A stretch of DNA of 64,000 nucleotides. It comes from Escherichia coli. Its GTDB lineage: Bacteria; Pseudomonadota; Gammaproteobacteria; Enterobacterales; Enterobacteriaceae. Below are positions 60,901-63,900 of the stretch, in pieces; position 1 is the first letter of the stretch; every line of letters starts with the position of its first letter. The position numbers were made by a program. Location of the stretch: assembly GCF_044647545.1 (NCBI RefSeq), contig NZ_CP172818.1; one strand, given 5' to 3'.

Positions 60901-63900
60901 GCTGTAGCACCTTAATCACCCTATTGGAACTGCTCCCTGCAAAACGGGGAGTAAAAAATCTGGAGAAAAATAATGGCTAAGAATATTCCATTCAAACTGA
61001 TTCTTGAAAAAGCAAAAGATTACCAGGCGGACATGACTCGCTTCCTGCGCGACATGGTTGCTATTCCCAGTGAAAGCTGCGACGAAAAACGCGTAGTACA
61101 TCGTATTAAAGAAGAGATGGAAAAAGTCGGCTTCGATAAAGTTGAAATCGACCCGATGGGCAACGTTCTCGGTTATATCGGCCACGGCCCGCGTCTGGTG
61201 GCAATGGACGCTCATATCGATACCGTCGGTATTGGCAACATCAAAAACTGGGACTTCGATCCGTACGAAGGCATGGAAACTGATGAGCTGATCGGTGGTC
61301 GCGGTACTTCCGACCAGGAAGGCGGCATGGCATCTATGGTTTATGCCGGTAAAATCATTAAAGACCTCGGTCTGGAAGATGAATATACCCTGCTGGTTAC
61401 CGGTACTGTGCAGGAAGAAGACTGCGACGGCCTGTGCTGGCAGTACATTATTGAACAATCCGGCATTCGCCCGGAATTTGTGGTCAGTACCGAACCAACC
61501 GACTGCCAGGTATACCGTGGTCAGCGCGGTCGTATGGAAATTCGTATTGATGTTCAGGGTGTTAGCTGCCACGGTTCTGCACCAGAACGCGGTGACAACG
61601 CCATTTTCAAAATGGGTCCGATTCTTGGCGAATTACAAGAACTCTCCCAACGTCTGGGTTATGACGAATTCCTCGGCAAAGGCACCCTCACCGTTTCTGA
61701 AATCTTCTTCACATCCCCAAGCCGTTGCGCTGTAGCAGATAGCTGCGCCGTCTCTATTGACCGCCGTCTGACCTGGGGCGAAACCTGGGAAGGCGCGCTG
61801 GACGAAATCCGCGCCCTGCCTGCAGTACAGAAAGCTAACGCGGTTGTTTCTATGTACAACTACGACCGTCCGTCCTGGACTGGCCTGGTTTACCCAACCG
61901 AATGCTACTTCCCGACCTGGAAAGTGGAAGAAGATCACTTCACCGTTAAAGCACTGGTGAATGCCTACGAAGGGCTGTTTGGCAAAGCGCCGGTTGTTGA
62001 TAAGTGGACCTTCTCAACTAACGGCGTATCTATCATGGGCCGTCACGGCATTCCGGTGATCGGCTTTGGCCCGGGTAAAGAACCTGAAGCGCATGCACCT
62101 AACGAAAAAACCTGGAAATCTCACCTGGTGACCTGTGCCGCGATGTACGCTGCAATCCCGTTAAGCTGGCTGGCAACCGAATAATTACTCTTCACTTATT
62201 CCCCTCCGGTTCGCCGGAGGGTTTTTGGAGTTTGCTATGCGCGTATTGATCAAAAACGGCACTGTCGTTAACGCAGATGGACAAGCCAAACAGGATTTGC
62301 TGATTGAAAGCGGGATTGTTCGCCAGTTGGGCAACAATATTTCGCCGCAGCTCCCGTATGAAGAAATTGATGCCACTGGCTGTTACGTTTTCCCTGGCGG
62401 CGTGGATGTCCATACGCATTTCAATATTGATGTCGGCATCGCGCGCAGTTGTGATGATTTTTTTACCGGTACCCGCGCAGCTGCGTGTGGCGGTACAACA
62501 ACCATTATTGACCATATGGGATTTGGCCCGAATGGCTGCCGGTTACGCCATCAACTGGAGGTTTATCGTGGTTATGCCGCCCATAAGGCGGTCATCGACT
62601 ACAGCTTTCACGGTGTGATCCAGCACATTAATCACGCCATCCTCGACGAAATCCCGATGATGGTCGAGGAAGGGCTGAGCAGTTTTAAACTCTATTTAAC
62701 CTATCAATACAAACTCAACGATGATGAAGTGTTGCAGGCATTACGCCGCTTGCATGAATCCGGCGCGCTGACCACCGTGCACCCGGAAAATGACGCAGCT
62801 ATCGCCAGCAAGCGGGCGGAGTTTATCGCCGCAGGGTTAACCGCGCCGCGTTATCATGCCTTGAGTCGACCTCTGGAATGCGAAGCGGAAGCCATCGCCC
62901 GCATGATTAACCTGGCACAAATTGCCGGTAACGCCCCGCTCTATATCGTGCACCTGTCTAACGGCTTAGGTCTGGATTATCTGCGTCTTGCCCGTGCGAA
63001 TCACCAGCCAGTCTGGGTTGAAACCTGCCCACAATATCTCCTGTTGGACGAACGCAGTTACGATACAGAAGATGGCATGAAGTTCATTCTTAGCCCACCG
63101 CTGCGTAACGTACGCGAGCAGGACAAACTGTGGTGTGGCATCAGCGATGGTGCGATTGACGTGGTAGCGACCGATCACTGCACGTTCTCAATGGCTCAAC
63201 GCCTGCAAATTTCTAAAGGCGATTTCAGTCGTTGCCCAAATGGCTTACCCGGTGTGGAAAACCGCATGCAACTGCTGTTCTCCAGTGGCGTGATGACGGG
63301 ACGTATCTCACCGGAGCGTTTTGTTGAATTAACCAGCGCGATGCCCGCCAGGCTGTTTGGCCTGTGGCCGCAAAAAGGATTATTAGCGCCCGGTTCCGAT
63401 GGCGACGTGGTGATTATCGACCCACGCCAGAGCCAACAAATTCAGCATCGCCATCTCCACGACAACGCTGACTATTCGCCATGGGAGGGTTTTACCTGTC
63501 AGGGCGCGATTGTCAGAACCTTATCCCGTGGTGAAACGATTTTCTGTGACGGCACCTTTACAGGCAAAGCCGGGCGAGGTCGTTTCCTGCGACGCAAACC
63601 GTTTGTCCCTCCCGTGCTCTAACCACTGCCAGGGATCTATACACAATCAAGAATGATGAGTGAGGAAAAATGAGTAAGAAAATTGTTCTCGCCCTGGGCG
63701 GGAATGCGCTGGGCGATGACCTGGCCGGGCAAATGAAAGCGGTAAAAATTACTTCTCAGGCAATTGTTGATTTAATTGCCCAGGGACATGAAGTTATCGT
63801 CACTCATGGTAACGGGCCGCAGGTGGGCATGATTAACCAGGCCTTTGAAGCTGCCGCAAAAACTGAAGCGCACTCGCCAATGCTGCCGATGTCTGTCTGT

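What the first reader, a model, noticed from the sequence alone, without database searches (positions are those of the whole stretch)
62185..62240. Strong intrinsic terminator 10 bp before the hyuA start codon
A GC hairpin with a T5 tail at 62202-62226 lies between ygeY and hyuA, implying that hyuA-yqeA expression needs read-through, antitermination, or a separate promoter rather than simple co-transcription with ygeWXY. This could be a regulatory checkpoint within the pathway.
Basis: seen in the sequence. Interest (0 to 1): 0.3.

Follow-up and report, generated by a model that had tools for sequence, protein, structure and literature searches.

The report
Conserved hairpin between ygeY and hyuA
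Between two genes of the E. coli anaerobic uric-acid operon sits a real RNA hairpin that looks like a leaky transcription stop; the hairpin is preserved across many bacteria but its stop signal is not, so it is an ordinary expression-tuning element rather than a regulatory switch.

Summary
An 8-bp, 7-GC hairpin with a UUCG loop (62202-62221) and T5 (62222-62226) lies 17 nt after the ygeY stop. It directly abuts the hyuA Shine-Dalgarno (62227-62230) and ATG (62237). Sites this strict occur twice in the 64-kb window, against 0.01 in shuffles.

In 60 of 60 species with a compact ygeY-hyuA spacer a strong hairpin holds this position. Stem sequences differ and 7 of 8 pairs show compensatory changes. 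The T-run is not conserved: only 3 of 33 Enterobacteriaceae have four or more T after the stem, and many have TCTGGAG or no T. A second covarying hairpin without a T-tail follows ygeW. Where hyuA follows ygeX directly there is no hairpin.

No promoter fits between the hairpin and hyuA, and none is recognisable in the ygeY 3' end. No antiterminator fold and no Rfam family was found.

Best reading: a constitutive intercistronic hairpin that in E. coli also acts as a leaky intrinsic terminator and 3'-end protector, stepping hyuA-yqeA down relative to ygeWXY. hyuA needs read-through. A regulated checkpoint is unsupported. No transcript data could be obtained. This is an ordinary finding of low interest.

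The parts
62182..62184 (+). ygeY stop codon (TAA)
   Evidence: ORF 60973..62184; annotated ygeY in RefSeq.
62185..62201 (+). 17-nt pyrimidine-rich spacer between the stop codon and the hairpin. Inferred to be long enough that a ribosome at the stop codon does not melt the stem.
   Evidence: Sequence. The spacer is 8-17 nt in most orthologous loci (up to 30 in a few, and 0 in one where the core-hairpin call is unreliable).
62202..62209 (+). Hairpin 5' arm CCCTCCGG
   Evidence: Pairing is kept with compensatory changes across genera.
62210..62213 (+). Tetraloop TTCG (UUCG). This is the only part that varies freely within E. coli (TTCA, TTTA).
62214..62221 (+). Hairpin 3' arm CCGGAGGG
62222..62226 (+). 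T5 (U-tract). Present in E. coli, including K-12. It is T4 in one strain examined, T6 in E. whittamii, and TTTCT or less in most other Enterobacteriaceae.
62227..62230 (+). hyuA Shine-Dalgarno GGAG, directly abutting the U-tract
   Evidence: GGAG/GAGG is conserved 6-9 nt before the ATG in alignment A1.
62237..62239 (+). hyuA start codon ATG
   Evidence: RefSeq annotation mapped onto the window. The N-terminus MRVLIKNG is conserved in 80 loci.
59668..59689 (+). Sister element: a conserved hairpin 7 nt after the ygeW stop (GGGCCGATCAGCTGGTCGGCCC), with no U-tract in most species
   Evidence: Compensatory changes in 4 of 8 pairs.
60931..60953 (+). Weaker hairpin in the ygeX/ygeY spacer, followed by an A-run. 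Conserved in only about 39% of loci.
58364..58380 (+). Published sigma54 -24/-12 site upstream of ygeW (CTGGCACACTTATTGTT). It is the only sigma54-type promoter site recognised upstream of hyuA within ygeW-hyuA.
   Evidence: PMC4591121; located in the window.

Best explanation
The element is a structurally selected intercistronic RNA hairpin at the 3' end of ygeY, inside the sigma54/YgeV-dependent ygeW-ygeX-ygeY-hyuA-yqeA transcription unit. In E. coli it is followed by U5. RNA polymerase that has transcribed the stem should therefore release a fraction of transcripts at about 62226-62230, which is leaky, constitutive intrinsic termination. The hairpin then caps and protects the ygeWXY message against 3' exonucleases. 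Polymerases that read through produce the only mRNA that carries the hyuA SD and ATG, so hyuA-yqeA are expressed at a lower level than ygeWXY. In relatives that lack the U-tract, the same hairpin probably works mainly as a 3'-end barrier. Shown here: the anatomy, rarity by chance, conservation and covariation of the stem, non-conservation of the U-tract, absence of a promoter or an antiterminator, and association with the ygeY 3' end rather than with hyuA. Inferred: that termination occurs, its efficiency, and the stabilising effect.
For: - Anatomy: an 8-bp, 7-GC stem with UUCG loop and U5, 17 nt after the stop codon.
- Rarity: 2 strict sites in 64 kb against 0.01 expected; d-score 29, in the terminator range but the weakest tail of six.
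- Hairpin present in 60 of 60 compact ygeY/hyuA spacers, against 20% for hyuA/yqeA and 39% for ygeX/ygeY.
- An unfitted MAFFT alignment gives an 8-pair consensus with 7 pairs showing double changes. 90.4% of cells are paired against 74.4% in shuffles; 41 double-change cells against 11.6; 0 of 500 shuffles reach this; slid controls give 37-60%.
- Within 5163 E. coli genomes the 66-nt query spanning the element is at least 95% identical. In the six E. coli sequences I aligned against the window, changes fall in the loop, one is a G.U-compatible C>T, and one is a T deletion.
- T-runs of 4-6 after the hairpin in Hafnia and Morganella (Morganella is T4 or T5 depending on where the stem end is placed); T5 set 1-3 nt after the stem in Serratia Ag1 and Enterobacillus; T-rich tails in Aeromonas and Edwardsiella.
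- No hairpin where hyuA follows ygeX directly.
- No promoter-like site; sigma54 mapping lists only the site before ygeW in this stretch; hyuA sits in the YgeV iModulon.
- Authors treat ygeW-yqeA as one operon and delete or overexpress it as a unit.
Against: - No experimental 3' end is available. The genes do not appear in the four supplementary files held for the Adams 2021 Term-seq paper. That may only reflect lack of expression in standard media.
- U5 followed by GGAG is a short tract, so efficiency could be low.
- 30 of 33 Enterobacteriaceae lack a T-run of four or more yet keep the hairpin. Termination therefore cannot be what selection maintains there.
- The sister hairpin after ygeW has no U-tract. 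This favours a termination-independent role.
- Databases quoted in the literature list 'ygeWXY' as an operon. That would imply efficient termination plus an unknown hyuA promoter.
Confidence: 0.5

Rival explanations
1. The hairpin is purely an mRNA-stability or processing element. It is a 3'-exonuclease barrier, like the hairpin after ygeW, that sets differential decay of operon segments. The U5 in E. coli is incidental and causes negligible termination.
For: The hairpin is universal while the U-tract is absent in most Enterobacteriaceae. A sister hairpin after ygeW covaries and lacks T-tails. The hairpin travels with the ygeY 3' end, not with hyuA.
Against: T5 is kept in every E. coli sequence examined except one T4 strain, and is T6 in E. 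whittamii. T-rich tails recur in Hafnia, Morganella, Serratia Ag1 and Aeromonas. A stem of this strength followed directly by U5 meets the usual terminator criteria.
Confidence: 0.25
2. It is an efficient terminator that ends a ygeWXY operon. hyuA-yqeA are then transcribed from their own promoter inside the 3' part of ygeY.
For: The literature quotes 'ygeWXY' as the operon name. The hairpin plus T5 scores as a terminator.
Against: Any promoter would lie upstream of the hairpin, so its transcripts would meet the same terminator. Only 10 nt lie between T5 and the ATG. No sigma70-like or sigma54-like site is found in 61700-62236. The sigma54 ChIP table lists no site there. hyuA follows the YgeV iModulon. 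The tail is the weakest of the six terminator-like sites in the window.
Confidence: 0.07
3. It is a regulated checkpoint: conditional antitermination or attenuation that responds to a metabolite, a protein or ygeY translation.
For: Its position inside a pathway operon makes such control conceivable. The stem is under selection.
Against: No mutually exclusive alternative structure exists in a 171-nt context, and that context has z = -0.40. There is no Rfam hit even at E <= 1. No complementary copy of either arm occurs elsewhere. No sequence conservation flanks the stem. The stop codon is too far upstream for ribosome-mediated control in most species. The U-tract is not conserved.
Confidence: 0.05
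4. It is a translation-level element for hyuA. A stable stem ending 5 nt before the SD, and 12-16 nt before the ATG in Enterobacteriaceae, would occlude the ribosome standby site or insulate the RBS, tuning HyuA synthesis.
For: The stem-to-ATG distance is narrowly conserved (12-16 nt) in compact Enterobacteriaceae spacers. After a repeat-element insertion in E. sp. E1V33 and E. whittamii, the hairpin still abuts the SD.
Against: There is no hairpin before hyuA when ygeX precedes it. The distance is 18-35 nt in Morganella, Hafnia and Aeromonas. Pairing of the SD with the upstream spacer is no higher than in shuffled spacers: 0.53 against 0.68, with 8 of 47 above control.
Confidence: 0.1
5. It is a chance palindrome or a copy of a dispersed repeat such as REP/BIME, with no function.
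For: The loose terminator scan of the region is not above chance.
Against: Strict sites number 2, against 0.01 expected. There is one place per genome and no other copy of the arm in the window. The position is orthologous in 60 of 60 loci, with compensatory changes.
Confidence: 0.02

Closest known systems
Internal (intra-operon) partial intrinsic terminators, e.g. the rplL-rpoB attenuator of the E. coli rplKAJL-rpoBC cluster (from established knowledge)
   Same: A GC hairpin plus U-run sits between co-regulated cistrons. Downstream genes have no recognisable promoter of their own, so they depend on read-through, which gives a step-down in expression.
   Different: Nothing has been measured for this site. 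The U-tract is short (U5) and fused to the next gene's SD. The U-tract is not conserved in orthologues, whereas the stem is.
Intercistronic mRNA-stabilising stem-loops (3'-exonuclease barriers), e.g. the malE-malF REP hairpins of E. coli and the puf operon hairpins of Rhodobacter (from established knowledge)
   Same: A stable hairpin lies just downstream of an upstream cistron within a polycistronic mRNA. It is conserved as structure rather than sequence, needs no U-tract, and has a second similar hairpin elsewhere in the same operon (after ygeW).
   Different: It is a single-copy, locus-specific hairpin, not a repeated REP element. Differential segment stability has not been shown. The E. coli version also carries a terminator-type U-run.
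Canonical Rho-independent terminators at gene ends, e.g. the OmrA/OmrB terminators in the same window (28007-28291, minus strand)
   Same: The hairpin size, GC content and loop length match, with the T-run immediately 3' of the stem.
   Different: The other five terminator-like sites in the window have T6-T9. This one has T5 followed by GGAG, and it lies inside an operon, 10 nt before the next start codon.

Membership tests
Intrinsic (Rho-independent) terminator | GC-rich stem of about 5-14 bp with a 3-8 nt loop | tested here: met
   An 8 bp stem with 7 G-C pairs and a UUCG loop, at -15.6 kcal/mol.
Intrinsic (Rho-independent) terminator | U-rich tract immediately (0-2 nt) 3' of the stem | tested here: met
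   U5 starts directly after the stem, followed by GGAG. It is the shortest tract of the six terminator-like sites in the window.
Intrinsic (Rho-independent) terminator | U-tract conserved with the hairpin in orthologous positions | tested here: not met
   A T-run of four or more is present in 3 of 33 Enterobacteriaceae and 6 of 14 other loci. 12 of 33 Enterobacteriaceae have two or fewer T in the 8 nt after the stem.
Intrinsic (Rho-independent) terminator | RNA 3' ends or RNAP release mapped at the U-tract | not testable with these tools
   The genes are absent from the four supplementary files held for the Term-seq paper PMC7815308. Supplements of the other data sets are not held.
Intra-operon attenuator (partial terminator) | Downstream genes lack their own promoter and are co-regulated with the upstream genes | tested here: met
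   There is no room for a promoter after the hairpin. No sigma70-like or sigma54-like site lies in the ygeY 3' part. The sigma54 site in this stretch is before ygeW only. hyuA is in the YgeV iModulon. The promoter absence rests on consensus scans only.
Intra-operon attenuator (partial terminator) | A measurable fraction of transcripts stops and a fraction reads through | not testable with these tools
   This needs RNA-seq or Term-seq under induction, or in vitro transcription.
Intercistronic mRNA-stabilising hairpin | A stable stem-loop just 3' of the upstream cistron, conserved as structure | tested here: met
   Present in 60 of 60 loci. 7 of 8 pairs show compensatory changes. 90.4% of cells are paired against 74.4% in shuffles. 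It is absent when ygeY is not the upstream gene.
Intercistronic mRNA-stabilising hairpin | The upstream segment is more abundant or longer-lived than the downstream segment, and this depends on the hairpin | not testable with these tools
   No transcript abundance or half-life data could be obtained.
Riboswitch / regulated attenuator | A conserved sensor domain or a mutually exclusive antiterminator structure | tested here: not met
   No Rfam match at E <= 1 or at gathering threshold. The hairpin is unchallenged in the 171-nt fold, and that context has z = -0.40. No second copy of the arm exists.
REP/BIME or other dispersed palindromic repeat | Many copies per genome | tested here: not met
   One place per genome in 5163 genomes. 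The arm is unique in the window.

The most novel reading that the evidence does not exclude
The two covarying hairpins, one after ygeW and one after ygeY, would together form a conserved post-transcriptional device of the anaerobic urate (2,8-dioxopurine) operon. They could be a stoichiometry-setting pair of decay or translation barriers, or binding sites for a dedicated RNA-binding factor. Their role would be independent of termination, and the E. coli U5 would be a recent add-on. The two enzymes encoded just upstream of the hairpins (YgeW, YgeY) are the ones used at ten-fold higher concentration in the published in vitro reconstitution. That is suggestive but proves nothing about cellular levels.
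Probability: 0.12. Interest if true: 0.45.

Novelty: new member of a known kind. Interest (0 to 1): 0.25.

Why it matters
The ygeW-yqeA genes encode the recently solved anaerobic uric-acid (2,8-dioxopurine) degradation pathway of gut bacteria, and strains are being engineered to overexpress it by placing a promoter before ygeW (PMC12507026). A leaky terminator or stabiliser hairpin before hyuA would cap how much HyuA and YqeA such constructs make. It would also explain why databases split the cluster into 'ygeWXY' and the rest. Removing or weakening the hairpin is a simple, testable engineering lever. Scientifically it is a clean example of a hairpin kept by compensatory evolution while its U-tract comes and goes, but the kind of element is well known.

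Tried and rejected
1. SD sequestration by an outer helix (ACUCU 62187-91 with GGAGU 62227-31, seen in the MFE), as a translational-coupling device. The pairing probability of the SD with the upstream spacer is 0.53 in 47 loci, against 0.68 with shuffled spacers, and only 8 of 47 exceed control. Rejected.
2. An antiterminator or alternative fold. None appears in the 171-nt context, and no second copy of either arm exists.
3. Rfam families. No match.
4. A separate hyuA promoter. No sigma70-like hit nearer than 61327-61355, and no sigma54-like site in the ygeY 3' part.
5. A DNA operator for a transcription factor. Rejected because complementarity is conserved, not sequence.
6. A REP-type repeat. 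The element is single-copy.
7. Experimental 3' ends or transcription-unit tables. The four supplementary files held for Adams 2021 have no entry for these genes. Supplements of Dar & Sorek 2018, the 3'-UTR valve paper, Conway 2014, the nanopore paper and PRECISE-1K are not held.
8. Iwadate & Kato 2019 is not held.
9. The RNA-seq figure of the promoter knock-in strain is not held.
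Full report
**What is there.** The window is Escherichia coli. 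The 231 nt around the finding occur once in 5163 of 5426 complete E. coli genomes. RefSeq annotates the flanking genes as ygeY (YgeY-family hydrolase) and hyuA (D-phenylhydantoinase). They lie within xdhABC, ygeV (minus strand), ygeW, dpaL/ygeX, ygeY, hyuA, arcC/yqeA.

In window coordinates:
- ygeY ends with TAA at 62182-62184.
- A 17-nt pyrimidine-rich spacer follows.
- The hairpin is CCCTCCGG/TTCG/CCGGAGGG at 62202-62221.
- TTTTT occupies 62222-62226 and GGAG 62227-62230.
- After six more nt comes the hyuA ATG at 62237.

**Is it more than chance?** The core hairpin folds at about -15.6 kcal/mol, and the 56-nt stretch has z = -2.97. The generic terminator scan is not enriched in this region: 12 found against 9.9 expected. 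I therefore applied a strict definition: a perfect stem of at least 8 bp, at least 6 GC, loop 3-8, and at least five consecutive T within 0-1 nt. Only two sites in the whole 64 kb, both strands, satisfy it, against 0.01 per dinucleotide shuffle. I also computed a d'Aubenton-Carafa-type score; the formula is recalled from the literature and the energies are from ViennaRNA, so thresholds are approximate. The site scores 29, sixth of six sites above 10. The other five carry T6-T9, and two of them are the OmrA/OmrB terminators. The stem is strong and the tail is modest.

**Comparative evidence.** A scan of one genome per species with HyuA returned 80 loci from Enterobacterales, Aeromonas, Photobacterium and some Betaproteobacteria. 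ygeY lies immediately upstream of hyuA in 73 of the 81 loci then held (the 80 plus the E. coli reference locus).

Among the 60 loci with a spacer of 130 nt or less, every one has a hairpin of -12 kcal/mol or better in the ygeY/hyuA spacer, with a median of -21. The same measure gives 92% for ygeW/ygeX, 39% for ygeX/ygeY and 20% for hyuA/yqeA.

The stems differ in sequence between genera. Examples are CCCTCCGG, TCCCCCGG, CTCCCGTCG, TCCCGCCGC, CCCCGGCAC, GCCCCGTAC and GGGGCGCC. A plain MAFFT alignment of 39 distinct spacers, not fitted to any structure, gives an 8-pair RNAalifold consensus in which 7 pairs show double compensatory changes. On that alignment:
- 90.4% of cells are paired, against 74.4% in column shuffles.
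- 41 double-change cells are seen, against 11.6.
- 0 of 500 shuffles reach the observed values.
- Slid-partner controls give 37-60% paired.

Within E. coli the 66-nt query spanning the element is at least 95% identical in all 5163 genomes. In the six E. coli sequences I aligned against the window (K-12, four variant strains and the E69 species representative), the differences are loop changes (TTCG to TTCA or TTTA), one C>T that turns a G-C into a G.U, one extra C before the stem, one T deletion (T4), and substitutions in the spacer or the ygeY 3' end. K-12 has the identical hairpin and T5. The RNA stem is therefore under selection. Conservation of complementarity rather than sequence argues against a protein operator on DNA.

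**The U-tract is not conserved.** I used a core-stem definition and counted T after the stem.
- Only 3 of 33 Enterobacteriaceae loci have a T-run of four or more directly after the stem: two Escherichia and one labelled Serratia silvae.
- 12 of 33 have two or fewer T in the next 8 nt.
- Typical tails are TCTGGAG (Kluyvera, Raoultella, Kosakonia), CTGGAG (Yokenella) and CGGAG (Trabulsiella).
- Outside that family, 6 of 14 have T4-T6 (Hafnia, Morganella). Serratia Ag1, Enterobacillus, Edwardsiella and Aeromonas have T-rich tails.
- Among close relatives the series is TTTCT (Citrobacter), TTTTCT (E. sp. E1V33), TTTTT (E. coli) and TTTTTT (E. whittamii).

The terminator-grade tail is thus a feature of Escherichia and of several distant lineages, not of the hairpin's whole history.

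**To which gene does the hairpin belong?** In genomes where hyuA follows ygeX directly (Serratia marcescens, Symbiopectobacterium, Lonsdalea, Rhodoferax, Comamonadaceae), the spacer is 5-100 nt, under 30 nt in all but Lonsdalea, and shows no comparable GC hairpin. So hyuA does not need the hairpin. It goes with the ygeY 3' end or junction.

A second hairpin, 7 nt after the ygeW stop (59668-59689 in the window), is also conserved, with compensatory changes in 4 of 8 pairs. It is almost never followed by T. That sister element cannot be an intrinsic terminator. It suggests that hairpins in this operon have a termination-independent role.

**Promoters and regulation.** Only 10 nt, including the SD, lie between T5 and the ATG. 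No promoter can sit downstream of the hairpin, and any promoter inside ygeY would send its transcripts through the same hairpin.
- The nearest sigma70-like match is 61327-61355.
- The published sigma54 site of ygeW is at 58364, and no comparable site lies in the 3' part of ygeY.
- Genome-wide sigma54 mapping lists sites before xdhA, ygeW and ygfK only (PMC4591121).
- hyuA belongs to the YgeV iModulon together with ygeWXY (PMC10602906 and PMC12133099).
- Several groups treat ygeW-yqeA/arcC as one operon, deleting it as a unit or driving it from a promoter inserted before ygeW.

I conclude, by inference, that hyuA-yqeA are made from read-through transcripts.

I found nothing that would make read-through conditional. 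The hairpin is unchallenged in the MFE and centroid of a 171-nt context, and that context is not unusually structured (z = -0.40). Neither arm has another complementary copy. No Rfam family matches, even at E <= 1. An apparent outer helix pairing the SD with the spacer is no more frequent than with shuffled spacers: 0.53 against 0.68, with 8 of 47 loci above control.

**Mechanism.** Most likely (about 0.5), the hairpin is a constitutive intercistronic element that does two things in E. coli. It releases a fraction of polymerases at the U5, and it protects the resulting or trimmed ygeWXY 3' end. The outcome is a step-down from ygeWXY to hyuA-yqeA.

The main rival (about 0.25) is that termination is negligible and the hairpin is only a decay barrier, as it must be in the many relatives without a U-tract. 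The other rivals are:
- a translation-level role for hyuA, through standby-site occlusion or insulation (about 0.1);
- an efficient terminator plus a hidden hyuA promoter (about 0.07);
- a regulated checkpoint (about 0.05);
- chance (about 0.02).

The spacing argument rests on general knowledge of ribosome footprints. It holds that a ribosome at the ygeY stop codon does not reach a stem starting 17 nt downstream. I did not test it.

**Comparison with known systems.** The element works like internal operon attenuators such as rplL-rpoB, and like intercistronic stabiliser hairpins such as malE-malF or the puf operon. It meets the sequence criteria of an intrinsic terminator in E. coli. It fails the test of U-tract conservation, and no mapped 3' end is available. 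It is not a riboswitch, not a REP element, and not in Rfam.

**Limits.** I could obtain no transcript-level data for this junction. The operon is nearly silent in standard conditions, the four supplementary files held for the Term-seq paper do not mention these genes, and the other supplements and the Iwadate & Kato paper are not held. Termination efficiency and any effect on stability therefore remain inferred.

**Verdict.** This is a new, uncharacterised member of a well-known kind of element. Interest is low (0.25). The mildly interesting twist is that the stem is kept by compensatory evolution while the U-tract is gained and lost.

Noticed in passing
window 59668-59689 (+): A hairpin 7 nt after the ygeW stop (GGGCCGATCAGCTGGTCGGCCC). 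It is conserved in 92% of loci with compensatory changes and is almost never followed by a T-run. It is a second structurally selected intercistronic hairpin in the same operon.
   Followed up: partly
window 60931-60953 (+): A hairpin in the ygeX/ygeY spacer, followed by an A-run and then the ygeY SD. A comparable hairpin is found in only about 39% of orthologous spacers. The hyuA/yqeA spacer (63623-63669) has none.
   Followed up: partly
L002 5773-6001 and L051 5785-6001: In Escherichia sp. E1V33 and E. whittamii an element of about 170 nt is inserted between the ygeY stop and the hairpin, and the hairpin still abuts the hyuA SD. About 100 nt of the element match a dispersed, unannotated repeat present at a median of 5 places per E. 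coli genome. A related GGGAGAGGGTTAGGGTGAGGGG motif occurs several times in the 363-nt spacer of Serratia oryzae (L048).
   Followed up: partly
L008 5743-6001 (Klebsiella indica): The ygeY/hyuA spacer is 257 nt. An insertion of about 200 nt appears to sit inside the loop of the ancestral hairpin, with the 5' arm CCTCCG near the stop codon and the 3' arm CCGGAGG near the SD. The predicted fold still closes them.
   Followed up: no
L061, L070, L073, L074, L077, L079, L080, L081 (Photobacterium), ygeY/hyuA spacers of 257-365 nt: Long spacers share a conserved long hairpin (CCGTCCCGAGGG...CCCCCTCGGGATGG) followed by ATTTTC. Several also have a second near-perfect 19-20 bp hairpin. This looks like a full terminator plus a separate regulatory region, so the cluster may be split into two transcription units there.
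   Followed up: no
L053, L054, L069, L071 (Rhodoferax/Comamonadaceae); L059, L068, L075 (Serratia marcescens, Symbiopectobacterium, Lonsdalea): The gene order is ygeW-ygeX-hyuA(-yqeA), without ygeY between ygeX and hyuA. The ygeX/hyuA spacers are 5-100 nt (under 30 nt in all but Lonsdalea) and show no comparable GC hairpin. In L069 a sigma54-like GGCACGCCTTGCA lies upstream of ygeW.
   Followed up: partly
window 28007-28094 and 28210-28291 (-): The sRNA genes OmrA and OmrB (Rfam RF00079, 96.6 and 86.1 bits). Their terminators (T8, T9) are among the three best-scoring terminator-like sites in the window.
   Followed up: yes
window 32637-32663 (-), 34363-34380 (-), 16225-16244 (-): Three further high-scoring terminator-like hairpins with T6-T8 tails. 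I did not look up their gene context.
   Followed up: no
window 51198-51268 (-): A tRNA gene (Rfam RF00005, 71.6 bits).
   Followed up: no
E. coli strain MB46, NZ_CP073958.1 around 938969-939168 (hit H12): The junction matches only up to about 60 nt into hyuA and is split into two places, with the gene annotated just 'hydantoinase'. hyuA is probably interrupted or rearranged in this strain.
   Followed up: no
L001 13217-15300 (E. coli O157:H7 PV15-279): yqeC, annotated as a selenium cofactor biosynthesis protein, is split by an IS3-family IS1203 insertion in this O157:H7 genome.
   Followed up: no
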